Made by a program: the position numbers and the translations under genes
Notes under the pieces: model-generated
What the model saw: only the letters and a program-made list of their open reading frames with translations
Database searches by the model: none
What the model was told of the DNA's origin: nothing
Part shown: piece after piece, positions 1 to 60,400 of the stretch
Numbering within the stretch: the stretch's first letter is position 1
How the letters are laid out: every line of letters begins with the position of its first letter
From: Eledone cirrhosa
Taxonomy: Eukaryota
Assembly: GCA_964016885.1 (NCBI GenBank)
Contig: OZ024746.1
Span: forward strand, 39,928,001-39,992,000
DNA: 64,000 nt
Reading direction: 5' to 3'

Positions 1-1844
1 CCCCTGAACACGGGTCCGAAGCCTGCCGCCTCGAGCACCGCATCCAGGTAACGATGGTCAACCCTATCGAAAGCCTTAGACTGATCCAAGTTGATCAGGG
101 CCCCACCGAAGCCGGGTTTACACCCTACCCTCTCTATGATGTATCGCATGAGGTGGAGGTTGTCGTGTATGGACCTGGTCGGGATCGCGCATGTCTGCGC
201 TTCTCCCACCAGGTTCTCGACGACAAGCGCCAGCCTCTTTGCCAACACCTTGGCCAAAATCTGTAACTCTGTGTTTAGCAGAGTTATGGGCCGGAAGTTG
301 CCTATGTCATCCCCCTTATTCTCGTCCTTCCTGATTAGTGTGACCACGCCCCCGGTTACAGAACTGGGAATTCTCCCGTTCTGTTGCCAGTTGCAGTAGA
401 CCGCTTCCAGGAGACCGGAGAATAAGTCCGGCATTGCTACGTAAAATTCGTAGGGTAGACCGTCGAGACCTGGAGATTTGCGTTTGCCGCATTGGCTCAG
501 CGCGTCCCCTATCTCAGTGGCTGAAATCGGCTTTTCGCAGAACTTCGCCTCGCTGTCCGAGAGTAGCGGTAGGCCGTCGAGGTATGGACCGAAATCCATA
601 GCCTCTCCCGGCGCGCCGCTCCCCCCGAACAGCCGAGCAAAGTGCCGCTGAAAAGCCGCACACATCTGCTTCGGCTCACGTATCACGCGTCCGTTTTGGT
701 CCTTCAAAGACCGAATCGTGGACTTGTTGCCACTTTTTGCCTCCGTCACTCGGGCCCAGCTAACAGCTTTGGCTCCCTCGTTTCCCAGAGCACGTATTTT
801 GCTTCTGACAACGCAGCCCTCGTGCTTTGCGTCGAAGAACTGGTCCAAGGCCGTTCTCGTTGCTAGCACGCTGGCTACGTTGCCACTTCTAATTGCCTCG
901 TCTACTTTATCTACCAGTTCCTTCTCGGTTCTATTTCTATCTAACGCTAATTCTTTACTAAAAACTATCGAGTCTAATCTAACTGCCCTCTTGAGAGAGT
1001 ACCACCATCTGTTGTTGACAATGGCCCCTGTCAAGTGCTGTTTAACTAAAGTGCTAATCCGTCTACTGTAGGCTTTGCTTGTCGGTAACGACAAGTTCAG
1101 CTTCCAGTAGCCGGGTCCTTGTCTATGGGTTCTATCAAGGTTGGCCATGCAGGTCACTAGTTTGTGATCTGAATAGGCAACCATGAACATTTGTGGACAG
1201 CTTAACATGTCCCTATCCTTATTTCTAACTAGAACCCTATCTAGGTACGATCTAGATGTTCCGCTACGATTACTCCACGTCCACAGTGGCGCAGTCGGAA
1301 AATCTAGTCGATATCTATCGGCCAGGTCAAATCGGTCGATTAACTGTTTGAGGCTGTTACACCCCCCTTTATCGGGACATGCTCCCACATAGTCCCAACG
1401 TGCATCTAGGATTCCATTCCAGTCCCCCACTAAAAGCAAGGAGCGGGACGTTCCCAGAAAAGTCTCTAGACGTTTGAAGAAGTCTGGCCGCGGTGTCCCG
1501 GATGGGGCATATGCGGCCACCAGCCTGAACGCTCCACCTTCACTACCGTCAACGTCTAGGACCACCAGTCGACCCTCCGGGTCCAGATGTACCGTCTGTG
1601 TTACGAGGCCCAGGTGTTTCCGCAGCAAAACGGCAACTCCGCCCCCACCCCCCGGTTGACAGAGAGATGCGTAGATCTCAAAGTCATCGAAGATGGGGGC
1701 CAGCTGTCGCTCGCCGTGGATCCTGGACTCGCAAATGGCTACCACATCCAAACTGTGCGACCTGAGGTCGTTTAAGAGTTTGCCCTGTTTCCAGGGCATC
1801 CCCAGGCCGCGTACATTCACACATCCAACTCTTATATTGGCCAT
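1..1844 (-). CDS. LINE ORF2: apurinic-like endonuclease plus N-terminal part of reverse transcriptase (truncated by window edge)
   Basis: Hand translation of segments from ATG at 1844 gives MANIRVGCVNVRGL...AICES, LVGDWNGILD and AYSDHK (APE motifs), then KSPGLDGLPYEFY, NFRPITLLNTELQILAKVLAKRL and INLDQSKAFDRVDH (RT motifs). Probably absent from the ORF track because no stop falls inside the window. Confidence 0.92.
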   Translation of the reverse strand, partial: MANIRVGCVNVRGLGMPWKQGKLLNDLRSHSLDVVAICESRIHGERQLAPIFDDFEIYASLCQPGGGGGVAVLLRKHLGLVTQTVHLDPEGRLVVLDVDGSEGGAFRLVAAYAPSGTPRPDFFKRLETFLGTSRSLLLVGDWNGILDARWDYVGACPDKGGCNSLKQLIDRFDLADRYRLDFPTAPLWTWSNRSGTSRSYLDRVLVRNKDRDMLSCPQMFMVAYSDHKLVTCMANLDRTHRQGPGYWKLNLSLPTSKAYSRRISTLVKQHLTGAIVNNRWWYSLKRAVRLDSIVFSKELALDRNRTEKELVDKVDEAIRSGNVASVLATRTALDQFFDAKHEGCVVRSKIRALGNEGAKAVSWARVTEAKSGNKSTIRSLKDQNGRVIREPKQMCAAFQRHFARLFGGSGAPGEAMDFGPYLDGLPLLSDSEAKFCEKPISATEIGDALSQCGKRKSPGLDGLPYEFYVAMPDLFSGLLEAVYCNWQQNGRIPSSVTGGVVTLIRKDENKGDDIGNFRPITLLNTELQILAKVLAKRLALVVENLVGEAQTCAIPTRSIHDNLHLMRYIIERVGCKPGFGGALINLDQSKAFDRVDHRYLDAVLEAAGFGPVFR

Positions 1845-1877
1845 GTTGGTGCTGAAAAGTTAAAAGAGGAAAAGAGA

Positions 1878-3794
1878 TCACTCACCCTTCGCCTCCTGGG
1901 GACCAGGCCGCACGATTTCCATGGGGGTGTTGGAGGGGTTGTCTGGATGGGTGGTGGTTTCCGGTGGGGTGGGGACGCAGATGTTTGGTGGGGTGGGGTC
2001 TGGTGGGATGGGGGTGTCTGGGGTGGGGAGGCATTTGAGAAGGACGCGGTTGAGTGGTTTCACGCAGGAATTCCCCACATCCTTCTCAAATGTTTCTTTT
2101 AGGGACCTATAAGTTTGTATAGGGACCCTAATCAGTTTTAGGTTCATTTTTTTGCTATTTTTTATAGAGTGGGCGAAAGTTTTCCCTTCGGTGAAAACCG
2201 AAGGGTCGTTCGTAATGGTCTCCATTGGTGTTTTGTTTTCAGTGTTTATGTAAGTGTAAGTGTAATTTTCTTGTGTTGTGTTTGTTTTTGTCTGTAGTTC
2301 TTGTGTGTGCTTTCGTTTTGTTGTAGGTATTTTGTTTTCAGGAGGTGGGGGTTTTGTTTGTGATATTTTTGTTGTTTGTGTTGGTGGTTGTATGTTTGTG
2401 GTAGTGTTTACTGGTTTTTTGCTTTTGTGATGTCTTTTCTTTCTTTTCGAGCGATGGGGTTCTCCCTCGTCTTCACTGGGTGATGGCGAGATAGCCTCAT
2501 CTGTTGTATCGTCTGTGTGATTGGGGAGGGGTATGTCTTGGGGAGCTGTTGTGTCTGTATGTGATTTTGCAGTGGTTTTAGGTGGAGTGAGGTTGGGTGG
2601 GACTGTGTTTGTTGTGGTTATTTTTGTGTGTTGGTGTTGTTGTTGTAGTGGTGGTGTTGGTGGTTGTGTTGTTTTGATGGGTGTTGGCAGAAGAGCCTTT
2701 TTTTGGTTCATTAGTTTAGGACAGGAAGCCCTCAGGTGACCCCTGCTAAAGCAATGGTAACATGAAGGCCGCCTACCCTCAACCGAAAGGTTTATGTAGG
2801 TAAGTCCGTCCAGGAGTACACGCTGTGGGATCATAGCTATTCGCTCTGGGCTCATTTGCACCAGAACTTCAATGCTAGTCCCATTGAATACATCTCTGGG
2901 GGACTTGCCTACTGACAGTATTCTGTCTTCATCAAAATTGATGAAGCCGCACAGTATCCACCATATGTTCACCTTTGGTGTGACACTTGTGATTCTGATC
3001 TTTTGTGTCCTTTTTCCCATGTATGTAGGGAAAAAGGTGTACAGGTTGGATACAATTGGCGACACAGAGTAATTTTGGGCCGTCAATTGATCCTTCATCA
3101 GTACCGAAATACTCCCAAAAAGTTTGCTTCTTTGAATGAATGCAATATCATTCATTGAATCTTTGAAAACCAGTTCAATATCTTTCTGTGACAATTGGAC
3201 TGGTTTTCGGGTAGAATTGGAAACTGTCCTAAAAACTATCGTTTTGAGAGCAGTTTCCTTGCGAATTTCTACCGGAGAATTGATGCTGAAAGCACCATTT
3301 TTTTCGAAGGTGACATATCTCTTAGCGTCCTTTAAAAGGTGTTCAGCATTTGTTATGTCGAGATATATCAATTGTTCTTTCTTTTGAACTTTCTCCGCAA
3401 AGGAGATTTTTGGTTTCTTTGTGGAATCCGTATTGGTGGTGTTGTCATTATTGTTGTTATTCTTGTTGTTATTCTTGTTGTCACCGATGTTGGTATCATC
3501 CGTATTTTCCTTGGTGTTGTTGTTGTCTTTGATGCTGGTGTTATTGGCGTTGTCTTTATTTTTTTCTTTGTTGTTGTTATCATTGTTGCTTTTATCATCA
3601 TTATTGGTTTTGCTGTTATTTTTGTTGTCATTGAGCTGTTTGGTGTCATTTGTGTTGTTTGGATGTGAATTCGTTTTTTTATTTTCATTTTGTCTTTCCA
3701 TCTCTATAGTATCTAGTGAAGAAGACGTTGTTGACTGCGAGCTTTGTAGTCTTACCGCCTCTCCACCACCATTATCGTTGGACGCAGCGTTCAT
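1878..3794 (-). CDS. LINE ORF1 (gag-like RNA-binding protein with CCHC zinc knuckle)
   Basis: 638-aa ORF containing CYHCFSRGHLRASC, an N/D-rich N-terminus and a P/T-rich C-terminus; ends 33 nt upstream of ORF2. Confidence 0.9.
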   Translation of the reverse strand: MNAASNDNGGGEAVRLQSSQSTTSSSLDTIEMERQNENKKTNSHPNNTNDTKQLNDNKNNSKTNNDDKSNNDNNNKEKNKDNANNTSIKDNNNTKENTDDTNIGDNKNNNKNNNNNDNTTNTDSTKKPKISFAEKVQKKEQLIYLDITNAEHLLKDAKRYVTFEKNGAFSINSPVEIRKETALKTIVFRTVSNSTRKPVQLSQKDIELVFKDSMNDIAFIQRSKLFGSISVLMKDQLTAQNYSVSPIVSNLYTFFPTYMGKRTQKIRITSVTPKVNIWWILCGFINFDEDRILSVGKSPRDVFNGTSIEVLVQMSPERIAMIPQRVLLDGLTYINLSVEGRRPSCYHCFSRGHLRASCPKLMNQKKALLPTPIKTTQPPTPPLQQQHQHTKITTTNTVPPNLTPPKTTAKSHTDTTAPQDIPLPNHTDDTTDEAISPSPSEDEGEPHRSKRKKRHHKSKKPVNTTTNIQPPTQTTKISQTKPPPPENKIPTTKRKHTQELQTKTNTTQENYTYTYINTENKTPMETITNDPSVFTEGKTFAHSIKNSKKMNLKLIRVPIQTYRSLKETFEKDVGNSCVKPLNRVLLKCLPTPDTPIPPDPTPPNICVPTPPETTTHPDNPSNTPMEIVRPGPQEAKGE

Positions 3795-4049
3795 AACGTA
3801 ATCAAAATTTTACAATATTTTTTCCAAGATTCGATGGAGAAAAATTTTTTAAATGGATATTCCGCCCCTGAAGGGGCGAAAATGAGTTGACCCACCACCT
3901 GAAGGTCCAGACGGGTGGTCAAGTTACACAATGATATAAAATTGAACTAAAAACTCACGTTTTTTCCTTACATAAATTAACGGAAACTTCTCCGCGAAGT
4001 GACACACGACTGATAGAGAGATAGATAGATATATTTCTTTATTAGCCCC

Positions 4050-4694: not shown

Positions 4695-6981
<2,287 letters not shown>

Positions 6982-12301: not shown

Positions 12302-13173
12302 ATGTGAGTATATAGTATATATATGTGTATGTATGTATACTTGTATTTTTGTATTTTTGTATGTGTTATTGTTTTTGCATTTGTTTTGTTTTGCTTTTGT
12401 TTTTTGTTTTTTTTGTGGTTTTATTTAAATCCTTCTTCGTAGAATACACACACCGGATACTAATAAATTGGCAAGGTTTCTTTGAATAAAGACAATGTCA
12501 GAGTGTTGTGAATATCTGAGGGCGAGTTACTGCGTGCATTATGTGGGTGTATGTGCAAATGCGTCTTTGTTACACATTTATGTATTTATGTGTCATTCCG
12601 CCTGTTTATGTATGGGTGGCTGCTTGTTTCTTTTCTTTATTTATATATCTGCTGGTACGTGTGCTTTGGCATGTGTTCATCCAAGAGCCGTTAACTTGGT
12701 GATGGAGTTGTATAGGCACGTAGTAATATACGGCGTGTCGTGGACATTTAAACTTAGCGGAGTCCATCCGTCACCATGTCTAAACATAACCGATTTCTTC
12801 CACTGGGAGCAAGAAAGAGAAAGTGAGAAATAGAGGAAGAATGCCCCCCCCCCTTAATAGACTGGCACTTTATAGACCTTTAAAGGATGAAAGGCAAAGC
12901 TAGACCTTAGCCGGAACGAATACCGTGAAGCATCCTATGCGTACTCGTATGTATTATAGAAAAAACCCAACCCTTTTTCTCTTTCCTTAGAGAGTTCACA
13001 AAGAACAGGTAAAATATTTCTGGTAACTCTTTGTGAACGTTCTATTTTGATATCTTCATCAAGAGAAGAACTCCAGTATATAACTGGTTATATATCAATC
13101 GAAATCTAAAATAAAAGACAAAATCACTCTCAGTGGAATTTGAACTCCAAATCAAATATGTTCATGCATTGTA

Positions 13174-13485
13174 ACCGACGGACTAAACTCGCCGCCTTTA
13201 AAGAACCGACGGACTAAACGGTCGGCCGTTAAGGAACCGACGGACTAAACTCACCGCCTTTAAGGAACCGACGGACTAAACTCACCGCCTTTAAGGAACC
13301 GACGGACTAAACTCACCGCCTTTAAGGAACCGACGGACTAAACTCGCTGCCGTTAAGGAACCGACGGACTAAACTCACCACCGTTAAGGAACCGACGAAC
13401 TAAACTCGCCGCCTTTAAGGAACCGACGGACTAAACTCACCGCCGTTAAGGAACCGACGAACTAAACTCGCCGCCTTTAAGGAAC
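13174..13485. repeat. 31-bp minisatellite, about 10 copies
   Basis: Unit aaggaaccgacggactaaactcaccgccttt with minor variants; arises at the head end of a minus-strand SINE A remnant. Confidence 0.9.
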
Positions 13486-14995: not shown

Positions 14996-15061
<66 letters not shown>

Positions 15062-15181
15062 TATAGACATAGAATATTCGAAAATATTCTGTATGTTTAT
15101 AATAAACATTTTGAAGACCTAATCGCTATAGAATAGAATACGTCACGTATTACAATTAGATTCTCGATAAAAGCAAGGGAA

Positions 15182-15224
15182 GTAATCTACGCGTTTCATT
15201 CTCGTTAGAAATCATCAGGACTAC
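15182..15224 (-). ncRNA. minimal type I hammerhead ribozyme, first of 10 minus-strand copies (every 310 bp to 17972-18014)
   Basis: Reverse complement of gtagtc-CTGATGA-t-ttct aacg agaa-t-GAAA-cgcg-TA-gattac. Confidence 0.88.
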
Positions 15225-18185
15225 ATATCCAGTGCTTTTATCGAGAATGACACAGCTAGAGACTTATAGAATACTTAGCTGTGTACAGGAACTGGTTTGA
15301 AAGAGCGGTTGCCGGTCCGGCAGAAATTAGAAATTGGAATAAATGCTCTGAAATAGCGATATATATGTGAATATAGACATAGAATATTCGAAAATATTCT
15401 GTATGTTTATAATAAACATTTTGAAGACCTAATCGCTATAGAATAGAATACGTCACGTATTACAATTAGATTCTCGATAAAAGCAAGGGAAGTAATCTAC
15501 GCGTTTCATTCTCGTTAGAAATCATCAGGACTACATATCCAGTGCTTTTATCGAGAATGACACAGCTAGAGACTTATAGAATACTTAGCTGTGTACAGGA
15601 ACTGGTTTGAAAGAGCGGTTGCCGGTCCGGCAGAAATTAGAAATTGGAATAAATGCTCTGAAATAGCGATATATATGTGAATATAGACATAGAATATTCG
15701 AAAATATTCTGTATGTTTATAATAAACATTTTGAAGACCTAATCGCTATAGAATAGAATACGTCACGTATTACAATTAGATTCTCGATAAAAGCAAGGGA
15801 AGTAATCTACGCGTTTCATTCTCGTTAGAAATCATCAGGACTACATATCCAGTGCTTTTATCGAGAATGACACAGCTAGAGACTTATAGAATACTTAGCT
15901 GTGTACAGGAACTGGTTTGAAAGAGCGGTTGCCGGTCCGGCAGAAATTAGAAATTGGAATAAATGCTCTGAAATAGCGATATATATGTGAATATAGACAT
16001 AGAATATTCGAAAATATTCTGTATGTTTATAATAAACATTTTGAAGACCTAATCGCTATAGAATAGAATACGTCACGTATTACAATTAGATTCTCGATAA
16101 AAGCAAGGGAAGTAATCTACGCGTTTCATTCTCGTTAGAAATCATCAGGACTACATATCCAGTGCTTTTATCGAGAATGACACAGCTAGAGACTTATAGA
16201 ATACTTAGCTGTGTACAGGAACTGGTTTGAAAGAGCGGTTGCCGGTCCGGCAGAAATTAGAAATTGGAATAAATGCTCTGAAATAGCGATATATATGTGA
16301 ATATAGACATAGAATATTCGAAAATATTCTGTATGTTTATAATAAACATTTTGAAGACCTAATCGCTATAGAATAGAATACGTCACGTATTACAATTAGA
16401 TTCTCGATAAAAGCAAGGGAAGTAATCTACGCGTTTCATTCTCGTTAGAAATCATCAGGACTACATATCCAGTGCTTTTATCGAGAATGACACAGCTAGA
16501 GACTTATAGAATACTTAGCTGTGTACAGGAACTGGTTTGAAAGAGCGGTTGCCGGTCCGGCAGAAATTAGAAATTGGAATAAATGCTCTGAAATAGCGAT
16601 ATATATGTGAATATAGACATAGAATATTCGAAAATATTCTGTATGTTTATAATAAACATTTTGAAGACCTAATCGCTATAGAATAGAATACGTCACGTAT
16701 TACAATTAGATTCTCGATAAAAGCAAGGGAAGTAATCTACGCGTTTCATTCTCGTTAGAAATCATCAGGACTACATATCCAGTGCTTTTATCGAGAATGA
16801 CACAGCTAGAGACTTATAGAATACTTAGCTGTGTACAGGAACTGGTTTGAAAGAGCGGTTGCCGGTCCGGCAGAAATTAGAAATTGGAATAAATGCTCTG
16901 AAATAGCGATATATATGTGAATATAGACATAGAATATTCGAAAATATTCTGTATGTTTATAATAAACATTTTGAAGACCTAATCGCTATAGAATAGAATA
17001 CGTCACGTATTACAATTAGATTCTCGATAAAAGCAAGGGAAGTAATCTACGCGTTTCATTCTCGTTAGAAATCATCAGGACTACATATCCAGTGCTTTTA
17101 TCGAGAATGACACAGCTAGAGACTTATAGAATACTTAGCTGTGTACAGGAACTGGTTTGAAAGAGCGGTTGCCGGTCCGGCAGAAATTAGAAATTGGAAT
17201 AAATGCTCTGAAATAGCGATATATATGTGAATATAGACATAGAATATTCGAAAATATTCTGTATGTTTATAATAAACATTTTGAAGACCTAATCGCTATA
17301 GAATAGAATACGTCACGTATTACAATTAGATTCTCGATAAAAGCAAGGGAAGTAATCTACGCGTTTCATTCTCGTTAGAAATCATCAGGACTACATATCC
17401 AGTGCTTTTATCGAGAATGACACAGCTAGAGACTTATAGAATACTTAGCTGTGTACAGGAACTGGTTTGAAAGAGCGGTTGCCGGTCCGGCAGAAATTAG
17501 AAATTGGAATAAATGCTCTGAAATAGCGATATATATGTGAATATAGACATAGAATATTCGAAAATATTCTGTATGTTTATAATAAACATTTTGAAGACCT
17601 AATCGCTATAGAATAGAATACGTCACGTATTACAATTAGATTCTCGATAAAAGCAAGGGAAGTAATCTACGCGTTTCATTCTCGTTAGAAATCATCAGGA
17701 CTACATATCCAGTGCTTTTATCGAGAATGACACAGCTAGAGACTTATAGAATACTTAGCTGTGTACAGGAACTGGTTTGAAAGAGCGGTTGCCGGTCCGG
17801 CAGAAATTAGAAATTGGAATAAATGCTCTGAAATAGCGATATATATGTGAATATAGACATAGAATATTCGAAAATATTCTGTATGTTTATAATAAACATT
17901 TTGAAGACCTAATCGCTATAGAATAGAATACGTCACGTATTACAATTAGATTCTCGATAAAAGCAAGGGAAGTAATCTACGCGTTTCATTCTCGTTAGAA
18001 ATCATCAGGACTACATATCCAGTGCTTTTATCGAGAATGACACAGCTAGAGACTTATAGAATACTTAGCTGTGTACAGGAACTGGTTTGAAAGAGCGGTT
18101 GCCGGTCCGGCAGAAATTAGAAATTGGAATAAATGCTCTGAAATAGCGATATATATGTGAATATAGACATAAAAGCACTGGATAT

Positions 18186-18228
18186 GTAGTCCTGATGATT
18201 TCTAACGAGAATGAAACGCGTAGATTAC
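18186..18228 (+). ncRNA. minimal type I hammerhead ribozyme, first of 7 plus-strand copies (every 310 bp to 20046-20088)
   Basis: Stem I gtagtc/gattac, intact CUGAUGA and GAAA boxes, stem II ttct/agaa, palindromic cgcg stem III, GUA cleavage triplet (predicted cut after 18222). Confidence 0.88.
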
Positions 18229-20499
18229 TTCCCTTGCTTTTATCGAGAATCTAATTGTAATACGTGACGTATTCTATTCTATAGCGATTAGGTCTTCAAA
18301 ATGTTTATTATAAACATACAGAATATTTTCGAATATTCTATGTCTATATTCACATATATATCGCTATTTCAGAGCATTTATTCCAATTTCTAATTTCTGC
18401 CGGACCGGCAACCGCTCTTTCAAACCAGTTCCTGTACACAGCTAAGTATTCTATAAGTCTCTAGCTGTGTCATTCTCGATAAAAGCACTGGATATGTAGT
18501 CCTGATGATTTCTAACGAGAATGAAACGCGTAGATTACTTCCCTTGCTTTTATCGAGAATCTAATTGTAATACGTGACGTATTCTATTCTATAGCGATTA
18601 GGTCTTCAAAATGTTTATTATAAACATACAGAATATTTTCGAATATTCTATGTCTATATTCACATATATATCGCTATTTCAGAGCATTTATTCCAATTTC
18701 TAATTTCTGCCGGACCGGCAACCGCTCTTTCAAACCAGTTCCTGTACACAGCTAAGTATTCTATAAGTCTCTAGCTGTGTCATTCTCGATAAAAGCACTG
18801 GATATGTAGTCCTGATGATTTCTAACGAGAATGAAACGCGTAGATTACTTCCCTTGCTTTTATCGAGAATCTAATTGTAATACGTGACGTATTCTATTCT
18901 ATAGCGATTAGGTCTTCAAAATGTTTATTATAAACATACAGAATATTTTCGAATATTCTATGTCTATATTCACATATATATCGCTATTTCAGAGCATTTA
19001 TTCCAATTTCTAATTTCTGCCGGACCGGCAACCGCTCTTTCAAACCAGTTCCTGTACACAGCTAAGTATTCTATAAGTCTCTAGCTGTGTCATTCTCGAT
19101 AAAAGCACTGGATATGTAGTCCTGATGATTTCTAACGAGAATGAAACGCGTAGATTACTTCCCTTGCTTTTATCGAGAATCTAATTGTAATACGTGACGT
19201 ATTCTATTCTATAGCGATTAGGTCTTCAAAATGTTTATTATAAACATACAGAATATTTTCGAATATTCTATGTCTATATTCACATATATATCGCTATTTC
19301 AGAGCATTTATTCCAATTTCTAATTTCTGCCGGACCGGCAACCGCTCTTTCAAACCAGTTCCTGTACACAGCTAAGTATTCTATAAGTCTCTAGCTGTGT
19401 CATTCTCGATAAAAGCACTGGATATGTAGTCCTGATGATTTCTAACGAGAATGAAACGCGTAGATTACTTCCCTTGCTTTTATCGAGAATCTAATTGTAA
19501 TACGTGACGTATTCTATTCTATAGCGATTAGGTCTTCAAAATGTTTATTATAAACATACAGAATATTTTCGAATATTCTATGTCTATATTCACATATATA
19601 TCGCTATTTCAGAGCATTTATTCCAATTTCTAATTTCTGCCGGACCGGCAACCGCTCTTTCAAACCAGTTCCTGTACACAGCTAAGTATTCTATAAGTCT
19701 CTAGCTGTGTCATTCTCGATAAAAGCACTGGATATGTAGTCCTGATGATTTCTAACGAGAATGAAACGCGTAGATTACTTCCCTTGCTTTTATCGAGAAT
19801 CTAATTGTAATACGTGACGTATTCTATTCTATAGCGATTAGGTCTTCAAAATGTTTATTATAAACATACAGAATATTTTCGAATATTCTATGTCTATATT
19901 CACATATATATCGCTATTTCAGAGCATTTATTCCAATTTCTAATTTCTGCCGGACCGGCAACCGCTCTTTCAAACCAGTTCCTGTACACAGCTAAGTATT
20001 CTATAAGTCTCTAGCTGTGTCATTCTCGATAAAAGCACTGGATATGTAGTCCTGATGATTTCTAACGAGAATGAAACGCGTAGATTACTTCCCTTGCTTT
20101 TATCGAGAATCTAATTGTAATACGTGACGTATTCTATTCTATAGCGATTAGGTCTTCAAAATGTTTATTATAAACATACAGAATATTTTCGAATATTCTA
20201 TGTCTATATTCACATATATATCGCTATTTCAGAGCATTTATTCCAATATATATATATATATATTTATATATATACACACATATAGTAAATGAAGTATTTA
20301 TATTTCCATGTAGACGCACATATACATATGTGTGAACGTATATGTTTACGTACTATTACGTATATGCGTGAGTTTGTGTATGTGTATATTTATGTATTTG
20401 GATTTTTTTCCCCTCAATTTATGCCCTTATTTTATATCAGCCTCACTTTCATTTATCCTAAATTCTGTTTTCAAATCCATATCACTATTCCATAATAAA

Positions 20500-20559
20500 T
20501 ATTTTTTCTGATGACAGACATAAGTATCTGTCTTCAAGAAACCATTGGTAAATGAAATA
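20500..20559 (+). ncRNA. hammerhead-like motif in PLE-type terminal repeat remnant
   Basis: tatttttt-CTGATGA-c-agaca..tgtct-tcaa-GAAA-ccattgg-TA-aatgaaata; downstream sequence matches that of 11289-11372. Confidence 0.6.
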
Positions 20560-20593
20560 ATTATCTTATGTTGTTTATTACATAACTATATAT

Positions 20594-21046
20594 AGGGCAA
20601 AGGAGCTCTTAAGAGTCAATTGCCATCCAAAATCACCGGGAGAGATGACCCCTTAGCCTTTGTCAAGGCAGAATTCTAGGAGAAGGAAAACTCTGATATA
20701 ACACCTGCAACCCTGATGGTATCCAATGATGTTGACTTGTTCTTCTTTTTGGTAAATATCATCTTGGGTTAAGAGAGTGGGACTGGCTTTGTGCAGTGCC
20801 TTTGCTCACTATAAAAGCTTCACGGCACAGGCATTGCTTTATATCTGGAGATCTCTCTACACTTGTCGTCACATGGTACCATGGGCCCAGCACTATGTAT
20901 CAATAGTTGTCACAAGTGTAGTGTTTGTACCAGAGTTTTCAAGTCGCTGGCTGGACTAAAAGTCACACTTGTTTAGCGCATCGGTAGGGGTTCTCCTACA
21001 TGGATATAAAGTAGTGGCCGTACTCGAAAACGAGTTGGCAGCCACC
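20594..21046 (+). mobile_element. degenerate RTE-derived bipartite element
   Basis: RTE 5'UTR-like ctaggagaaggaaaactctga and a C-terminal zinc-finger-like remnant HKCSVCTRVFKSLAGLK. Confidence 0.4.
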
Positions 21047-26016: not shown

Positions 26017-26521
26017 GGGTGGCAAAGGAGACTTAAAGATCTCCTTAATGAGAGCTCCATAGACCTCATCATGTACTCTCGTAGACGATATCAATATAGT
26101 TATAAGAACATCCCCACTAGAGAGCAGTAACAAGTTTGATTTAGAACGTAGCACAATGGAAAGCATCCAGCAGATAGCTAATTCCATACACCAGAGTATA
26201 ACTGTAACTATCGACTACCCTTCCAAACACCCTAACAATAGACTACCTGTATTAGACACAGAACTCTGGATTAACACTATAGACGAGAGACCCCAAATTC
26301 TCCACTCACACTATGCTAAACCCATGGCCTCCAAATACCTGATACTCAAAAACTCACCAATGTCCAGTAGTGCTAAGTTTAATATTCTGATCGCAGATTT
26401 GGTACGAGTGATGAAGAATGTGTCCCGCATGTGCGACCCAACAGAAATGGAAAAACACATCCAACACTTCATCAACCGCATGCAGTTCTCTGGCTACAAC
26501 CAAAGAGACAGAGTCAGATAA
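26017..26521 (+). pseudogene. Neptune-type Penelope-like element reverse transcriptase fragment
   Basis: VDDINIV (YVDD region disrupted upstream), TIDYPSKHPNNRLPVLD, HYAKPMASK, LVRVMKNVS and FINRMQFSGY, which are PLE RT core and thumb motifs; starts at an (AT)n tract. Confidence 0.85.
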
Positions 26522-30842: not shown

Positions 30843-32012
30843 TATTTCTTTATTTACTATAAAGGCATAAAAAGAAGGGACAAATACAAAGGGGGAGTTT
30901 ACATACAATCGAGTAAAAAGGGTGTAAAATGAAAATAATCGAAAACAACCTCAAAAGGGAGGGGACGTGATGGGGGTTGCCCACACACCCGAAAAAGTGT
31001 GTAATCCTTTGCCCGGGGAGCACATGGAGAAGGTGCTCCCCTCTCCTTCACTTCTTTACCTACAGGATGGTATACAGAGAAGGCCCATTTACACGAGCCA
31101 TTCTCGCCACTATCACCCACCTTTCATAAAACTGCCTGTGGCCAAGCACCTCTCTCTCCATTCTTATCCTTCTTCCGAAGTGATATCGGAAGAAGTAGAC
31201 CAGACTATGGCCAGAGTGGAAGTTACCTGACCTCAGACCTTTCAATCGTGTCCACCAAACAACCTCTTTCAACATGGCTTTTACGCACAGAAAAACCGCC
31301 TTTGCTTCCATTGTGAAGAGGGGAGGCGGTTTGATTGTCATCACGGACTCGGCGGTCAATTGAATCGGCGCCACCCGCGACAGCAGTCGTTCGGCGTAGC
31401 CCCACAGATCAGCCACGCCCGGACATTGCACCAATGCGTGCGCAACGGTTTCTTCGTGACGCACGCATCTAGGGCAAATCTTTTTCGAGGGATCCCTGCC
31501 CGGGCGCCCGTGTCTGTAGAGCCTCTCTCGAACGGTAGAGCCCCCCGTTAGCACTGCCAGGCTAGTGACTTCTGGAAGTTGTCCATTGGTCCCGGGCCGA
31601 AAGTCCTACCGAACAGGCTGGCCAGTTCGTCCTCTTCCATGTCCAGCGACTCTCCAAGGGTGTCATCGCCCCTGCTAGCCACCAGCCCTCTATAGAATGA
31701 TGAGGTGGATTCTCCACCGATGGCCTGGCCCGCTTGCCAGAGAGCCCTGAGCGCCTGAGCACACTCAGTGTGCCAGTCTCCCAGTTTTCCGGATCTTTGC
31801 TTGACCCAGGACTGCAGCTCGGTGAGCGAGACGAGTCTCGGAAAGGCTCGTTTCACGAACGGAGCCCACACCGGTTGACCAGTGAGGAATACCTGTAGGT
31901 GCCGTAGCCTTAATGCGTGCCTACGCATCATCAACCACGGCATCCCCAGCCCTCCTTTCGAAGGTTGTTGGCAGCAGATGGATCTTCTCACCATAGGAGG
32001 GCGCTTCTTCAA
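30783..32012 (-). mobile_element. 5'-truncated Tx1/L1-clade LINE (ORF2 C-terminus with zinc finger, 3'UTR, (TATC)n tail)
   Basis: KGGLGMP motif and CPRC..EETVAHALVQC; one frameshift near 31550; ends aataaagaaatatatctatctatc; (GATA)n on both sides. Confidence 0.88.
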
Positions 32013-32019
32013 TATAGAG

Positions 32020-32079
<60 letters not shown>

Positions 32080-32139
32080 GGGTGGATGGACAGGCAGACA
32101 GGCAGACATACAAACAGGCAAACAGATAGATAGATATCT

Positions 32140-32520
32140 TTAGATAGATAGATTTCTTTATTTGCCACAAGGGCGCACAAGAAAAGGGGACAATACAAGG
32201 ACATATGCCGGGGATTTCACATACAATCGTGTAAAAAAATGTTTAAACAAATAAATTCAACAATCGAAATCCCCAATAGGGGGGGGGGGGTTACAAATGG
32301 GTTGTTTAATACCTCGTAGATAGAACAACCCTCAACTCCAGGAGCGTGTTGTGCAAGTGCTCCTTTCCTCCTTTTGCTCTCATTTTCAACCTACAGAGAA
32401 GGCCCAATCACTCGGGCCATTTTTGCTACATTCACCCACCTTTCAGTAAATTTACTGGGGTGCAGTGTCTCTCTCTCCACTCTGATTCTCCTTCTAAAGT
32501 GGTACCTAAAGTCATTTCAA
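32140..32520 (-). mobile_element. second, more diverged Tx1 3' fragment in tandem
   Basis: Homologous to ~30840-31190; same aataaagaaat..tatc terminus. Confidence 0.75.
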
Positions 32521-38664: not shown

Positions 38665-39105
38665 AGACATTAAAAATAGATTTCTAAAAGGCTATTTCAG
38701 ATAATCAGCTTTCACAGCTCCTACACGATAAATGGACGAACTAAAGATGTGCATCTACGTAGTCACTCGATCTGCTAGAAATAGTAGCTAAAGCTTGCCC
38801 AAACCACGCTAGACATTAAAATAATAGATTTCTAAAAGGCTATTTCAGATAATCAGCTTTCACAGCTCCTACACGATAAATGGACGAACTAAAGATGTGC
38901 ATCTACGTAGTCACTCGACCTGCTAGAAATAGTAGCTAAAGCTCGCCCAAACCACGCTAGACATTAAAAAATAGATTTCTAAAAGGCTATTTCAGATAAT
39001 CAGCTTTCACAGCTCCTACACGATAAATGGACGAACTAAAGATGTGCATCTACGTAGTCACTCGACCTGCTAGAAATAGTAGCTAAAGCTCGCCCAAACC
39101 ACGCT
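38665..39105. repeat. three tandem copies of a ~147-bp unit
   Basis: agacattaaa..atagatttctaaaaggc...cccaaaccacgct repeated 3 times; no HHR core seen. Confidence 0.9.
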
Positions 39106-52344: not shown

Positions 52345-52387
<43 letters not shown>

Positions 52388-52794
52388 ATACTTTGGGAGG
52401 GTCATGTTGCCAATAAGAAACACACGCACCAGTTGCTTTCACTTCAATTTATTATATATTTATAAATTTATAAATTTACAAATCTACAAATTTATAAATT
52501 TCTGGTTGGTTGGTTGGTTCCACAACCAGATAGTTGTTTATATATAGTCATAGTCCTTTCGTCACACACTCTGTGACCTCTTCAGTGACTGGGGATTCCT
52601 TTCTTTGTTTCTGTGCCTTTCCTTTCTTCTGTCCTACGCCATTTTGTTTCTGTGTGTGTGTTGTGTGCTCAGTTTGCGCATGCGCCATATCCGGGTGTCT
52701 GTGTGTGTTTGTGTTCATTTATCTATTTGTTTATTTATTTACATGTTATTGGTTGGTTGTTTGTTCTATGTGTGTGTGTGTTTTCATTTTGTCC

Positions 52795-53514
52795 TTAATT
52801 GTAAGTTGTGATGTTGCTGTTCCACTCATATTTTCTATTTAATTTTGGTTGTAATTCTTTTATGTTTATTGCCTCTGTAATTTGTCTAAACATTGCATCT
52901 TTCCTGTGTGTAGATTCTATTTTTATTTCTATGTTCTCTAATTTACCCTTGTGTTCTATCTTAGCATGTTGGTAGAGTACAGATGATTCTTTATTATCTT
53001 GAAGGTCTCGCTAGTGTTCATTTATCCGTTCCCCTATACTACGAGCTGTCTCACCTATGTACACTATATTTTTGTTTCTACATTGTCCTTCAGTACATCT
53101 TATGCTATACACTACATTTCTAGTTTTACAGTTAATATGGGGGCTTATTTTACAGGTTATACATTTCTTATCTATACATGAGGGTCTTTAGAACGGGTAT
53201 CTCTTGCTAATAAGTGTTTTTACGGAGGTACCTGGTCTTTCTACTATCTTAATATTGAGTTTATGTTTATTTAGGGCCCTTCTAAATTTGTAGGCTAGTT
53301 CGCCTCTAGGGGTTGTATCGATGAACATTACACTCTGGTATTTATTGCTATCATACCATGAGTTTATTCTATTGGCCTTGTTCCTAGTTCTTTCTATTCT
53401 ATTCCAAAATTTGCTCCTATACAAGGGGCAGGTCCCATTTATGTCATTATTTACCATTTTTTTTACCATTTTTTTCCCATTTGGTTCTGGCTCCTCTATA
53501 CACTCTGAGAACAA
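52795..53514 (-). pseudogene. PLE polyprotein C-terminus: linker, Cys-rich zinc finger, GIY-YIG endonuclease (two in-frame stops)
   Basis: One frame: VMFIDTTPRGELA..KIVERPGTS..YPF*RPSCIDKKCITCKISPHINCKTRNVVYSIRCTEGQC..VYIGETARSIGERINEH*..SVLYQHAKIEH..RQITEAINI..LNRKYEWN. Confidence 0.9.
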
Positions 53515-53572
53515 TTAGGAATGACGTAGGACAGAAGAAAGGAAAGGCACAGAAACAAAGAAAGGAATCCCC

Positions 53573-53617
53573 AGTCACTGAAGAGGTCACAGAGTGTGTG
53601 ACGAAAGGACTATGACT
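53573..53617 (+). ncRNA. minimal type I hammerhead ribozyme in the PLE terminal repeat (mirror at 52546-52590, minus)
   Basis: agtca-CTGAAGA-g-gtcaca..tgtgac-GAAA-ggac-TA-tgact. Confidence 0.8.
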
Positions 53618-53831
53618 ATATATAAACAACTATCTGGTTGTGGAACCAACCAACCAGAAATTTATAAATTTGTAGATTTGTAAATTTATAAATTTATAAA
53701 TATATAATAAATTGAAGTGAAAGCAACTGGTGCGTGTGTTTCTTATTGGCAACATGACCCTCCCAAAGTATAACAATATCGGTTTCAACACACGATTTCA
53801 GATAAAGAATCTTCCTAAACAAATTCAGAAA

Positions 53832-54000
<169 letters not shown>

Positions 54001-54378: not shown

Positions 54379-57300
54379 GGTGGGATAAGCGAGAGTAAAA
54401 TTACTGTTATGCCTGAATACATATGCATGTTAGCTAATAAATCATTAGATAATATAGCTAATATAACCAGTTCATTAACATAAGTATATATATGCGTGTG
54501 TGTGTGTGGGTGTGTATTTATATATAAACATATATATACACATATATATATACACACATATATATACATACATATCTTTATACATACATATACTCATCTC
54601 CATTCATTTCCACTATTAACATAAGACCATCAGTTTGAAGGTAGCGGTGTAGCCGAGTTAATAGACTCCAGTAGAGGACACGCCATCATTTTCTCTAGAA
54701 TGATGAACGACAAAATTGATCTCAGTAGGTTTTGTAGTAACTAAATACACCAATTCAGATTCTGCCACCACCACCCCTCCCAACTCCACCAACACCAACA
54801 GCAACGGCACTACCATCACGACCACACCACCATTAACTGTTGCTATCACTATCGCACCACCACACCACCCTTAGCTGAGCCAATATTAAAAACAACTGAG
54901 CCAAATTAGTTAATTCTCACTGGAATGGAGTTTTGCCAAAACCGACATTTATATCTGCGGGTGTCATTCGTAACGAAAAAAAGAACATCATATCTAGTTT
55001 ATAAATATATAGAAATATATAGCAATCATACATTATATCATACTACATGTATTAAAGTGCATACATCAAAATAAATATGCAGTAAAGAAAAAACAAAATC
55101 TATGTGACAACTTCATTAGTATGCTTGATTGGACATACATAAAAATCTTAAAGATTGACAGTAAAAAAAAAAAACCTGAAGAAAATTTACTACTATTGGC
55201 AACATGTTGATTGAATTCATAAACAGAAAATTAAAACCGAATGAAACTTAAAATTAATCTCATTCGTCTTTGGTTACTAAATTACATACATTCTCTAAGA
55301 CAGAAGCTAATAAATCGTAGATTATATATGTAAATGATAGACCACCAAGGAGTTTATGACGGAACGCCGTTTTTTTTTGGGGGGGGGGGATAAAGGGAAT
55401 AGTATTAGGTTGTTCAGAAATTTATGCAGGTTTTTAAACATTTATTTTAAAACGACATATCTCAGTCCAGATTAAACTTTATTGATTGAAATAAAAACCA
55501 TTAGAATCTACTTATTTTTGTTAACAAGATACAAGTTTATTTATTCCGGTAATATAGATAGTTAATTTACACAGTGCTCCTGTTGCTTAGAATTGTGAAT
55601 ATATTTACACATTCTACCTAAGTATCGCTAGATTGACTGAGCCCACCAATAGAAACAATCTTGGTCATAGTTTGAACGTAGCCCATTCGACCAGCAATCA
55701 ACATCCATCAACTTAACTAGCTGTGTCACTCTAAGAGGAATTCGGTGCCAAATGTTGATAAGCAACTGAATAGTAAAGTCCACTGCATTTCGAAATAAAC
55801 CTATATGCCACGATTTCGATTTCTTATTGAAATCCTTTTCATTTTCTTACGCTATAAATATTCTTTAGAAAGGTATATATCACTACTCTCATCCCTAAAG
55901 TTTTGGGGTTCTTTCTTACCCAGAGAAGGTCAGAGGAAATCATTCTTGAGCGTCATCATTTTGTACACTCCTTCAAATAAAGTTTGGAAACATATAATTA
56001 TAATCGATATAAAGAGCAAAATGTTGAAATGTTAATAAATGACGTTTGTTTATGCAGAGGATGTATCATATACTCCATCTTTAATATTCGGGTAACATAC
56101 ATATATTTTTTTCAAAAAATTATGAATGATGGCATATTACTATAGAAGACGTAAACTATATATATATATATATATATCAATATATAATTAAAACTTCAAT
56201 CTTCTCTTGGGCATGAACAGCGAAGAATATCATTTTTTTTTTTTTTTTGGCTGATAGTGACAGTGTTTGATTACTATTTGGCTAAAACTTTGAAAGTGGC
56301 GATATTATATTTCTGGGGAGATTTCATCGTCTTGGGGGTATAGTCGATTAAAGTTAAAATATCTTAGTATTTCTTTTTGTATTTTTTAATACTAAACCAA
56401 TACTTATAAGGGAGAGGAACAGAGTTGTGATGTTCATGCTTTTCTCTGCAAGAATTAACGAGATAATCAAAATTATAAAAAAAGAAATTTTTTAAATGCG
56501 TGGCCTTAGATCACCTTAAATTTCGTGACGTGTGTCAAAAAGACAAATAAAACATTGCAGTTGTAGAATGAATAAAATATGAATTGCTATGTAAATAGTG
56601 GAAATATAAGATTAATAGCTTTAATATAGATAACTGTAAATATTGTTCTTGGGAATTAATTTGCGTTATGTCGTAAATAATTGGTTTCTGAATTAGGCAC
56701 AAGACCATCAATTTAGGGGGAGGGGAAAGTCGATTAAACCGCCCTAGTGTGTTACTGGTACTTTATTTTATCGACCCCGTAAAGATGAAAGGTAAAATTA
56801 ACCTAGACAGGATTTGAACTCAGAACGTAAAGGAACGTAACCATATGCCGCAAAGTATTTTGTCCGACGTTCTACCGATACTGACAATCCACAGCCCTTA
56901 CGTCGTAAATAATTGAGATTTATTGATAAATGATATGATCTATCGAACGACAAACACCGTGAGCTTGATGAGAGAGTGGGCTGTAATTGGTGTTGGTAAG
57001 GAAAATAACGGGCAAGTGGCTGAGCATTCCACAGACACTGTACCCTTAACGTAGTTAAATGATACGATCCATTGAACGACCAACAATGTGAGCTTGATGA
57101 GAGAGTGGACTGCAATTAGATTATTGGTGTTGGTAGGGAAACTAACGTGCAAGTGTCTGAGCATTCCACAGACACGTGTACCCTTCACCTAGTTCTCGGC
57201 GATGTTCAGGGTGATAGTGTATGGCAAGGCTTCCCCTTTGAATTACAGGTACAGCTCATTTTTACTAGCTGGGTATACTACTGGTGCAATGTGAAATAAA

Positions 57301-57469: not shown

Positions 57470-60400
57470 TAGTGATGGCGATGACTGTCATGGTGGCGAT
57501 TGGAATAATGATGACAATTATGGTGATGATAGTGATGATAGTGGTGATAGTATTGGTGGTGATGGTGGTGATGGTGGTGATGGTGGTGATGGTGGTGATG
57601 GTGGTGGTGGTGATGGTGGTGATGGTGGTGATGGTGGTGATGGTGGTAGTGGTGATGGTGGAGATGGTGGTGATGGTGGTGATGGTGGTAATGGTGGTGA
57701 TGGTGATGGTGGTGATGGTGGTGATGGTGGTAATGGTGGTGATGGTGGTGATGGTGGTAGTGGTGATGGTGGAGATGGTGGTGATGGTGGTGATGGTGGT
57801 GATGGTGGTAATGGTGGTAATGGTGGTGATGGTGGTAGTGGTGATGGTGGAGATGGTGGTGATGGTGGTGATGGTGGTGATGGTGGTGATGGTGGTGATG
57901 GTGGTGATGGTGGTGGTGGTGGTGATGGTAATGATAGTGATGGTGGTGATGGTGGTGATGGTGGTGATGGTGGTGATGGCGGTGATGGTAATGATAGTGA
58001 TGGTGGTGATGGTGGTGATGGTGGTGATGGTGGTGATGGTGGTGATGGTGGTGGTGGTGATGGTGGTGATGGTAATGATAGTGATGGTGGTGATGGTGGT
58101 GATGGTGGTGATGGTGGTGATGATGGTGGTGATGGTGATGGTGGTGATGGTGGTGATGGTGGTGATGATGGTGATGGTGGTGATGATGGTGATGGTGATG
58201 TTGGTGATGGTAATGATAGTGATGGTGGTGATGGTGGTGATGGTGGTGATGGTGGTGATGATGGTGATGGTGGTGATGGTGGTGATGGTGGTGATGGTGG
58301 TGATGGTGGTGATGGTGGTGGTGGTGGTGATGGTGGTGGTGGTGGTGATGGTGGTGATGATGGTGATGGTGGTGATGATGGTGATGGTGATGTTGGTGAT
58401 GGTAATGATAGTGATGGTGGTGATGGTGGTGATGGTGGTGATGGTGGTGATGGTGGTGATGGTAATGGTGGTGATGGTGGTGATGGTGGTGATGATGGTG
58501 ATGGTGGTGATGGTGGTGATGGTGGTGGTGGTGGTGATGGTGGTGATGGTGGTCATGGTGGTCATGATGGTGATGGTGGTGATGGTGGTGATGGTGGTGA
58601 TGGTGGTGGTGGTGGTGATGGTGGTGATGGTGGTGATAGTGGTGATGGTGGTGATGGTGGTGATGATGGTGATGGTGGTGATGGTGGTGATGGTGGTGGT
58701 GGTGGTGATGGTAGTGATGGTGGTGATGGTGGTGATGGTGGTGATGGTGGTGGTGGTGGTGATGGTGGTGATGGTGGTGATGGTGGTGATGGTGGTGATG
58801 GTGGTGGTGGTGGTGATGGTGGTGATGGTGGTGATGGTGGTGATAGTGGTGATGGTGGTGATGGTGGTGATGGTGGTGATGGTGATGGTGGTGATGGTGG
58901 TGATGGTGGTGATGGTGGTGATGGCGGTGATGGTAATGATAGTGATGGTGGTGATGGTGGTGATGGTGGTGATGGTGGTGATGGTGGTGATGGTGGTGGT
59001 GGTGATGGTGGTGATGGTAATGATAGTGATGGTGGTGGTGGTGGAGATGGTGGTGATGGTGGTGATGGTGGTGATGATGGTGATGGTGGTGATGATGGTG
59101 ATGGTGATGTTGGTGATGGTAATGATAGTGATGGTGGTGATGGTGGTGATGGTGGTGATGGTGGTGATGGTGGTGATGGTGGTGATGGTAATGGTGGTGA
59201 TGGTGGTGATGGTGGTGATGATGGTGATGGTGGTGATGGTGGTGATGGTGGTGGTGGTGGTGATGGTGGTGATGGTGGTGATGGTGGTGATGATGGTGAT
59301 GGTGGTGATGGTGGTGATGGTGGTGATGGTGGTGGTGGTGGTGATGGTGGTGATGGTGGTGATGGTGGTGATGGTGGTGATGGTGGTGGTGGTGGTGATG
59401 GTGGTGATGGTGGTGATGGTGGTGGTGGTGGTGATGGTAGTGATGGTGGTGATGGTGGTGATGGTGGTGGTGGTGGTGATGGTGGTGATGGTGGTGATGG
59501 TGGTGATGGTGGTGATGGTGGTGGTGGTGGTGATGGTGGTGATGGTGGTGATGGTGGTGGTGGTGGTGATGGTAGTGATGGTGGTGATGGTGGTGATGAT
59601 GGTGATGGTGGTGATGGTGGTGATGGTGGTGATGGTGGTGGTGGTGGTGATGGTGGTGATGGTGGTGATGGTGGTGGTGGTGGTGATGGTAGTGATGGTG
59701 GTGATGGTGGTGATGATGGTGATGGTGGTGATGGTGGTGATGGTGGTGGTGGTGGTGATGGTGGTGATGGTGGTGATGGTGGTGATGGTGGTGATGGTGG
59801 TGGTGGTGGTGGTGGTGGTGATGGTAGTGATGGTGGTGATGGTGGTGATAGTGAGTGATGGTGGTGATGTGGTGATGGTGGTGATGGTGGTGGTGGTGGT
59901 GATGGTGGTGATGGTGGTGATGGTGGTGATGGTGGTGATGGTGGTGGTGGTGGTGATGGTGTGATGGTGGTGATGGTGGTGGTGGTGGTGATGGTAGTGA
60001 TGGTGGTGATGGTGGTGATGATGGTGATGGTGGTGATGGTGGTGATGGTGGTGATGGTGGTGGTGGTGGTGATGGTGGTGATGGTGGTGATGGTGGTGGT
60101 GGTGGTGATGGTAGTGATGGTGGTGATGGTGGTGATGGTGGTGGTGGTGTGATGGTGGGTGATGGTGGTGATGGTGGTGATGGTGGTGATGGTGGTGGTG
60201 GTGGTGATGGTGGTGATGGTGGTGATGGTGGAGGTGGTGGTGATGGTAGTGATGGTGTGATGGTGGTGATGATGAGCTGGTGTGATGATGGTGATGGTGA
60301 TGTTGGTGATGGTAATGATAGTGATGGTGGTGATGGTGGTGATTGGTGGTGATGTGGTGATGGTGGTGATGGTGGTGATGGTAATGGTGTGATGTGGTGA

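What the first reader, a model, noticed from the sequence alone, without database searches (positions are those of the whole stretch)
15058..20247. 5.2-kb array of 310-bp monomers, each carrying an intact hammerhead ribozyme: candidate cephalopod retrozyme / circular RNA element
Seen: what looks like a satellite is ~16.7 apparently identical 310-bp units, each containing gtagtc-CTGATGA-tttctaacgagaat-GAAA-cgcg-TA-gattac, which has complete HHR core boxes, paired stems I and II and a palindromic stem III; the unit has no ORF. Established: metazoan non-LTR retrozymes are non-coding tandem repeats of a few hundred nt with type I HHRs that self-cleave to monomers and circularise, and minimal HHRs with palindromic stem III can cleave as dimers, which a tandem transcript would favour. 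Inference: read-through transcription releases 310-nt monomers that circularise, and the array is a rolling-circle cDNA of such a circle made by a PLE reverse transcriptase. I am not aware of a description of this family but cannot check databases.
Basis: partly seen in the sequence, partly recalled or inferred. Interest (0 to 1): 0.93.

Follow-up and report, generated by a model that had tools for sequence, protein, structure and literature searches.

The report
Two-armed rolling-circle hammerhead retroelement
This is one copy of a very young, non-coding jumping element that carries a self-cutting RNA motif, and its two back-to-back runs of identical units look like the record of one small circular RNA being copied round and round into both ends of a DNA break.

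Summary
The 310-bp units and their hammerhead (HHR) are real, but the array is not one tandem. It is two opposed arms (10.05 units minus, 6.71 plus) joined head to head inside (TA)n. The family has at least 15,148 units at roughly 2,000 dispersed loci (estimate). Of 94 loci examined, 75 of the 80 resolved have the same divergent arms. One arm ends at unit position ~184-193 and the other at ~219: the Penelope-like element (PLE) signature of inverted copy, 35-nt tail and microsatellite target. Each locus carries one haplotype on both arms (33 of 35; chance 0.14). Two A-to-G changes in predicted stems (832 and 791 units) occur as whole-array runs, A20G on five backgrounds, while control changes occur 2-5 times singly. 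Best reading: a non-LTR retrozyme whose monomer circle, sometimes ADAR-edited, is primed from both ends of a PLE-made break and copied by rolling-circle reverse transcription. Not shown: cleavage, the circle, editing, the autonomous PLE. The HHR has a U·U pair at 10.1/11.1 and no Rfam match. The class is known; this architecture and the editing imprint were not found in the papers searched.

The parts
15001..15057 (.). Left (TA)n target tract
15058..18171 (-). Arm A: 10.05 identical units, HHR on minus strand; RNA-sense 3' end at unit position 184 (site A) at 15058, 5' truncation at unit position 171
18169..18171 (.). Head-to-head junction of the arms, 3-nt microhomology
18169..20247 (+). Arm B: 6.71 identical units, HHR on plus strand; 3' end at unit position 219 (site B). 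Unit numbering throughout: 18169 = 1
18186..18228 (+). Type I hammerhead, first of 7 plus-strand copies (every 310 bp); predicted cut after 18222; U·U at 10.1/11.1; recurrent A>G site A20 at 18188 (A here)
17972..18014 (-). Type I hammerhead, innermost of 10 minus-strand copies (outermost 15182-15224)
18473..18559 (+). 15-bp outer stem enclosing the HHR (18473-18487 with 18545-18559; spans the unit boundary), with compensatory changes in sister family B; recurrent A>G sites A3, A4, A74 lie in it
20213..20247 (+). 35-nt 'tail' between sites A and B, present at the end of arm B only
   Evidence: PLE tail as in PMC8557442 and PMC11167929
20248..20274 (.). Right (TA)n target tract

Best explanation
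A young non-LTR retrozyme mobilised in trans by a Penelope-like RT/GIY-YIG protein. (1, inferred) Read-through transcripts are cut by the HHR, probably as a dimer, and 310-nt monomers are ligated to circles. (2, inferred from sequence) Some circles are A-to-I edited in their long stems. (3, inferred; PLE biochemistry known) The PLE protein cuts both strands of (TA)n, and each 3' end primes reverse transcription on the same RNA unit, one at site A (~184-193, an AU patch) and one at site B (~219). (4, inferred) Each RT runs round the circle for a variable number of turns. (5, junctions shown, process inferred) The two cDNAs are joined by microhomology or short inserts and filled in. The product, which is shown, is two divergent multimer arms of one haplotype with a 35-nt tail on one arm. 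A few long arrays expand further as DNA.
For: Architecture: 75 of 80 resolved loci are two-armed and divergent, 5 single-armed, none convergent; 14 of 94 unresolved (13 cut by the fetch edge, 1 N gap). In the 14 loci not chosen by their end (window, L031-L040, L141-L143) all 12 two-armed ones have one A end (180-193) and one B end (217-224). Genome-wide there are 1001 exact B/(AT)n and 676 exact A184/(TA)n junctions. The same layout occurs in coding PLEs here (L102, L103, L110, L154; window 52381-53833) and is the described PLE signature. A purified PLE cut both strands of AT-rich DNA and started RT at two adjacent internal RNA sites bounding the tail (PMC11167929). One template: arms share a haplotype in 33 of 35 loci, chance 0.139; 29 haplotypes among 85 loci. 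Inner truncations are uniform over the unit (KS p=0.20) with no excess at the ribozyme cut (3 of 96 vs 2.2 expected). A20G: 832 units; the 100 listed form 14 runs on 5 backgrounds, none isolated, both orientations in 10 of 14. A74G: 791 units, in runs. Controls C23T 5, A20C/T 5, T57C 2 units, none in adjacent units. In loci held, 15 of 16 locus-site cases (A3, A4, A20, A74) are all-G. A>G is 9 of 21 distinct non-backbone fixed changes vs 7 of 84 singletons (Fisher p=5e-4), T>C 2 of 21, and 8 of 9 A>G sites are predicted paired at 0.96 or more. UAG is a top edited triplet and octopus has the highest editing rate of 22 species.
Against: No direct evidence of cleavage, circle or editing. The HHR is atypical at 10.1/11.1 and its active fold lies 6.7 (monomer) or 6.4 kcal/mol (dimer, two sites) above the MFE; 8 of 9 Xenopus retrozyme dimers did not cleave in vitro, and the anole PLE did not need its HHR for insertion in vitro. 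No PLE with a homologous terminal repeat among 75 PLE-containing loci of about eight families. Core conservation alone is not significant (0 of 29 fixed changes in 11 of 310 positions; about 1 expected). L058 and L167 switch haplotype within an arm; L050 and L067 share a partial variant across arms; L071 (45 units) has repeated partial variants. A56G lies in GAU, the least edited triplet (one background only). 80 of 94 loci were chosen by the 219 end and all but the window lie on contig C1. The backbone/non-backbone split was chosen after seeing the data.
Confidence: 0.68

Rival explanations
1. Fold-back: one end primes rolling-circle RT, the enzyme switches onto its own cDNA and copies back, and the second end is made by endonuclease resolution. 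The template is still one circle, but there is one priming event.
For: Gives one haplotype on both arms without two enzymes on one RNA. Arm lengths correlate (rho 0.43, p=0.004). Partial variants are shared across arms at L050 and L067. Craig et al. ascribe the tail to EN resolution.
Against: Either arm can be longer (A>B in 17 of 43), so both orders would be needed. Both outer ends sit at RNA positions with microhomology to (TA)n. At L058 neither arm can be a copy of the other. In vitro both strands are extended from two RNA sites.
Confidence: 0.14
2. Linear template: an uncut multimeric read-through transcript, or a cut monomer whose paired ends let RT jump across the nick.
For: Arrays of up to 45 units exist; the HHR may be weak; unprocessed RNA was the main substrate of the anole PLE; non-autonomous head-to-tail multicopy PLEs such as MRC1 occur in a clade said to lack canonical HHRs.
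Against: Independent editing or mutation of units in a multimer would give mosaics; A20G and A74G are all-or-none. No arm examined ran into a parent's junction or flank. No unit-to-unit heterogeneity at the cut site and no excess of 5' ends there. A nicked, unligated circle is not excluded.
Confidence: 0.11
3. The recurrent A>G changes are not editing. They are rare DNA or RT mutations favoured by selection on RNA structure and spread across backgrounds by template switching. This concerns step 2 only.
For: A-U to G·U keeps pairing; sister family B has G at the A20 position; switches between backgrounds occur (L167).
Against: Equally pair-keeping C23T and pair-improving T57C occur 5 and 2 times. 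A20G sits on 5 backgrounds defined by sites 8-19 nt away, too close for frequent recombination.
Confidence: 0.3
4. DNA-level satellite amplification (unequal exchange or reinserted circular DNA), or an assembly artefact.
For: L071 and L050 show repeated partial variants typical of DNA expansion. Inverted repeats are known to trouble assemblies.
Against: Over 1000 dispersed loci with different junctions, haplotypes and flanks but two fixed end sites; strand-asymmetric A>G; a 11-15 bp target duplication at L143; contigs of runs from separate studies cover the whole unit and its unit-to-unit join.
Confidence: 0.05

Closest known systems
Metazoan non-LTR retrozymes (coral, mussel, axolotl: PMC7229834; vertebrate survey: bioRxiv 10.64898/2026.07.22.740005)
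   Same: Non-coding, low-GC tandem units of a few hundred bp, each with a type I HHR; circle intermediate and PLE helper proposed.
   Different: Divergent two-armed insertions, fixed A/B ends, (TA)n target and locus-fixed A>G changes are not described in the parts read; 'inverted' occurs 0 times in PMC7229834 and once, in a reference title, in the preprint. Those families have RNA evidence or a matching pLTR; this one has neither yet.
EN+ Penelope-like elements (PMC8557442; anole Poseidon PAc, PMC11167929)
   Same: Inverted 5'-truncated copy, 30-40 bp tail at one end, microsatellite or AT-rich target, two internal RT starts downstream of the HHR.
   Different: No ORF; both arms are long multimers of a 310-nt unit; no autonomous partner found.
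MRC1 and other non-autonomous Chlamys elements (PMC8557442, passage)
   Same: Non-autonomous PLE derivatives with multicopy head-to-tail insertions.
   Different: They resemble their autonomous partner at the 3' end and belong to a clade said to lack canonical HHRs.
L1 twin priming; hepatitis delta virus amber/W editing (both recalled, no call)
   Same: Two primers on one RNA giving an inverted 5' part joined by microhomology; ADAR editing of a UAG in a circular ribozyme RNA that becomes fixed on copying.
   Different: L1 uses a linear RNA and a poly(A) end; HDV is copied RNA to RNA and codes for a protein.

Membership tests
non-LTR retrozyme | Tandem units of about 150-450 bp, each with a type I HHR | tested here: met
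   definition
non-LTR retrozyme | GC below 50%, no protein coding | tested here: met
   GC 0.34-0.35 over the array; longest frame 59 aa
non-LTR retrozyme | No LTR, PBS or PPT | tested here: inconclusive
   No LTR layout at any locus; PBS and PPT not searched
non-LTR retrozyme | TSD longer than 4 bp when present | tested here: inconclusive
   11-15 bp at the one clear non-TA locus, L143; in TA flanks 2 of 43 vs 1.9 in controls
non-LTR retrozyme | HHR self-cleaves as monomer or dimer | not testable with these tools
   Folding only; the 9 fixed changes inside the HHR fall at N7, loop II, 10.1 (making A-U) or pair-keeping stem I sites
non-LTR retrozyme | Expressed as linear and circular monomer RNA | not testable with these tools
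   Needs RNA data; genomic inference only
canonical metazoan type I HHR (PMC4209133) | Helix I 6 bp, helix II 4 bp, helix III 1-2 bp with palindromic loop, full core | tested here: met
canonical metazoan type I HHR (PMC4209133) | G10.1-C11.1 pair | tested here: not met
   U·U in the window; A-U in T31A haplotypes, 17 of 85 loci
canonical metazoan type I HHR (PMC4209133) | Match to an Rfam hammerhead model | tested here: not met
canonical metazoan type I HHR (PMC4209133) | Loop 1-loop 2 tertiary contacts | not tested
   Not examined
non-autonomous PLE derivative | Inverted 5'-truncated copy next to the main copy | tested here: met
   75 of 80 resolved loci
non-autonomous PLE derivative | 30-40 bp tail on one end | tested here: met
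   A 180-193 vs B 217-224 in 12 of 12 unselected two-armed loci
non-autonomous PLE derivative | Microsatellite or AT-rich target | tested here: met
non-autonomous PLE derivative | Homology to the pLTR of an autonomous PLE in the genome | tested here: inconclusive
   None in 75 PLE-containing loci of about eight families; 50 had only 1.5-kb flanks and the family list is incomplete

The most novel reading that the evidence does not exclude
Each of about 2,000 loci records one circular RNA molecule, read by two PLE reverse transcriptases from both ends of one break, with that molecule's A-to-I edits written into every unit. This would be genomic evidence that retrozyme circles are the true transposition template, a mechanism for PLE tandem/inverted/tail structure, and a route by which cephalopod RNA editing becomes heritable DNA change at about 5% of units per site.
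Probability: 0.45. Interest if true: 0.88.

Novelty: new variant of a known kind. Interest (0 to 1): 0.76.

Why it matters
Two open points meet here. How PLEs make their tandem and inverted structure is called undefined in PMC8557442, and the helper and template of animal retrozymes are proposed but not demonstrated in PMC7229834, PMC7761336 and the 2026 preprint. This family is very young (84 singleton changes in 753 units, 3.6e-4 per base, assembly errors included), abundant and stereotyped. It supplies exact priming sites, a 310-nt template and two marker positions for direct tests. If the A>G pattern is editing, it shows germ-line RNA editing fixed in the genome through a circular RNA.

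Tried and rejected
DNA search of the own genome with the unit returned nothing because common words are skipped; patterns were used instead. Rfam: no hammerhead; the MIR8562 hit reflects the inverted junction and lies far below its gathering score. I first read a 68% match beside PLE copies as that PLE's terminal repeat; some searches showed a separate older sister family (B) in (TA)n, and L101/L104 are duplicates. The long ORF near L141 is an APE-RT LINE by its motifs, not a partner. Partner search by a window PLE fragment and by PF01541 found none. TSD test in TA flanks was uninformative. Sequencing runs: no RNA holder listed. The closed 340-letter records in X1 and X2 arise from tandem DNA as well as from a circle, so they say nothing about RNA; the best holder may be the source sample. 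Rows dropped before counts: the first arm of L070 (duplicate of L069), a 0.42-unit inner piece of L041, loci under two units for haplotype counts (9 of 94), arms under one unit for concordance (10 of 45), L050 and L076 for end and length counts. Sixteen further listed loci were not obtained and twenty only as 1.3-kb pieces. Three look-ups of earlier findings returned nothing. PMC5785218 is not held.
Full report
OBSERVATION. Tandem Repeats Finder reports two 310-bp arrays, 15049-18171 and 18169-20247. Mapping every base to the first plus-strand unit (18169 = position 1) shows no mismatch in 16.75 units, but opposite orientation: 10 HHR cores on minus, 7 on plus. The arms meet head to head through 3 nt of microhomology and both outer ends lie in (TA)n. 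The HHR has a full core, 6-bp stem I, 4-bp stem II and a palindromic stem III, the canonical metazoan type I layout of PMC4209133. A descriptor matches 1 of 3000 shuffles. Against 'intact': U·U at 10.1/11.1, a predicted competing pairing that hides the GAAA box (stem II probability 0.13-0.15, rising to about 0.9 in the natural T31A haplotype), an active fold 6.7 kcal/mol above the MFE as monomer and 6.4 for two sites as dimer, and no Rfam hammerhead hit. A 15-bp outer stem encloses the ribozyme; against four copies of an older sister family it keeps 63 of 65 cells paired, with 5 of 13 pairs changed on both sides (few, related sequences). The longest frame is 59 aa.

THE FAMILY. The genome is 3.0 Gb. 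Exact patterns give 4,226 HHR cores of the window type, 15,148 copies of an internal 31-mer, 1001 junctions of position 219 with (AT)n and 676 of position 184. About 2,000 loci is my estimate from units per locus and end frequencies. I analysed 94 loci (window plus 93 on contig C1; 753 units): 75 two-armed and divergent, 5 single-armed, none convergent, 14 unresolved. Eighty were chosen by the 219 end. In the 14 that were not, all 12 two-armed loci have one end at 180-193 and one at 217-224. Inner ends are uniform over the unit. Of 45 junctions, 25 overlap by 1-5 nt (one by 16), 5 are blunt and 15 carry inserts. The one clear non-TA insertion has an 11-15 bp duplication. Singleton divergence is 84 in 753 units, so the burst is very recent.

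PLE SIGNATURE. An inverted 5'-truncated copy, a 30-40 bp tail on one end and a microsatellite bias are described PLE features. The purified anole PLE cut both strands of AT-rich DNA and began RT at two adjacent internal sites bounding the tail. Coding PLEs in this genome have the same layout, including one in the window at 52381-53833. The best named homologue of one such protein is from Octopus vulgaris, 67%. No autonomous element with a repeat homologous to the unit was found in 75 PLE-containing loci of about eight families, so the helper is inferred.

ONE TEMPLATE UNIT PER LOCUS. Variants are mostly fixed in every unit of both arms: 104 fixed calls, 8 partial and 60 singletons in the first 51 loci; arms agree in 33 of 35, chance 0.139; 29 haplotypes in 85 loci. 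Arms do not stop at the ribozyme cut (3 of 96 vs 2.2). Among non-backbone fixed changes A>G is 9 of 21 (singletons 7 of 84, p=5e-4; T>C 2 of 21), nearly all in predicted stems (the backbone set was chosen after inspection). A20G (UAG) occurs in 832 units; the 100 listed form 14 runs on five HHR backgrounds, in both orientations at 10. A74G occurs in 791, also in runs. Controls C23T, A20C/T and T57C occur 5, 5 and 2 times, never in adjacent units. In loci held, 15 of 16 cases are all-G. A change that recurs on many backgrounds, on one strand, in ADAR's preferred context, and then fills whole arrays is best read as an RNA edit on a single unit that was copied repeatedly for both arms. A linear multimer edited unit by unit would give mosaics. 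This is inference; selection plus template switching is the rival. Exceptions: L058 and L167 switch once within an arm, L050 and L067 share a partial variant across arms, and L071 has expanded as DNA.

MECHANISM. Shown: unit, motif, arms, ends, target, haplotype pattern. Inferred: cleavage and ligation to a circle, editing of some circles, double-strand cut in (TA)n by a PLE protein, priming at A and B on one RNA, rolling-circle extension, microhomology joining. Confidence 0.68; fold-back 0.14; linear or nicked template 0.11; DNA-only or artefact 0.05. For the A>G step alone, editing about 0.65.

COMPARISON. It works like, and meets the sequence criteria of, a non-LTR retrozyme; the RNA criteria are untested. 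It ends like a PLE, but a partner is not identified. Searches for retrozyme+hammerhead, Penelope+hammerhead+tandem+inverted+rolling circle, cephalopod+hammerhead ribozyme, Penelope+twin priming+inverted, octopus/Penelope/non-autonomous/circular RNA (69), Penelope-like+satellite DNA+hammerhead, A-to-I+retrozyme and ADAR/retrotransposed/octopus (89) listed no description of this family, of two-armed retrozyme arrays or of an editing imprint. Subscription journals, Repbase and Dfam were not searchable. Seen: bioRxiv 10.64898/2026.07.22.740005 parts 1-3 of 5 and a term search; PMC7229834 abstract, passages, Results part 1 of 3 and Discussion; PMC11167929 parts 1-2 of 4; PMC4209133 parts 1-2 of 4; passages only of bioRxiv 2021.04.23.441226 and PMC8557442, PMC7761336, PMC5680766 and bioRxiv 2020.01.19.911685. 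No supplements were read; those of PMC7229834 and PMC4209133 list further invertebrate HHRs and could include a cephalopod one. L1 twin priming, HDV editing and the PLE clade names given to proteins here are recalled.

VERDICT. Real; a new variant of a known kind; interest 0.76.

Noticed in passing
window 52381-53833: Truncated coding PLE with the same layout: (TA)n, long minus arm with the 3' part of an RT/GIY-YIG frame (56% to P0001, with stops), 263-bp inverted arm with a ~55-nt tail, (TA)n; well-formed type I HHR cores at 52585 (-) and 53578 (+).
   Followed up: partly
window 26063-26521: Fragment of an abundant PLE family (15,487 first-look candidates; frames to 1304 aa including microsatellite read-through; linker Zn finger and C-terminal GIY-YIG).
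   Followed up: partly
L101:7061-7574, L110:595-1014, L112:2449-2864, L033:4623-4709, L073:7546-7650: Older sister family B, about 68% identical to the unit, two-armed in (TA)n, mostly decayed HHR; its ends appear shifted to unit-equivalent ~152 and ~187; 5 independent loci in 765 kb.
   Followed up: partly
L154:185 and 5700-5830, L158:6213 and 7145, L159:5851: Further small HHR-bearing insertions in (TA)n, several two-armed; one shares stem II and the U·U pair with this family.
   Followed up: no
L041, L047, L068, L077, L074: Two different locus-fixed 1-nt insertions two bases after the predicted cut site, giving 311-bp units.
   Followed up: no
G000:C1704:50582-107713: Three C23T units of one haplotype 24-33 kb apart in mixed orientation on a small contig; a large array or a duplicated locus.
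   Followed up: no
L071+L146: Arm of 45.4 units with partial variants repeated 9, 5 and 2 times: secondary DNA-level expansion or assembly effect.
   Followed up: partly
window 3-1859 and 1878-3809, minus strand: LINE with an APE-RT frame (Pfam Exo_endo_phos, RVT_1) and an upstream 643-aa frame without Pfam match; related fragments at 31060-32216.
   Followed up: no
window 13173-13485, 38665-39105, 56927-57194, 57520-61969: Other tandem arrays: 31 bp x10, 148 bp x3, 137 bp x2, and 4.4 kb of a 9-bp unit with extreme GC skew.
   Followed up: no
window 20530-21036: High-copy repeat right of the array, also seen upstream of a PLE at L149.
   Followed up: no
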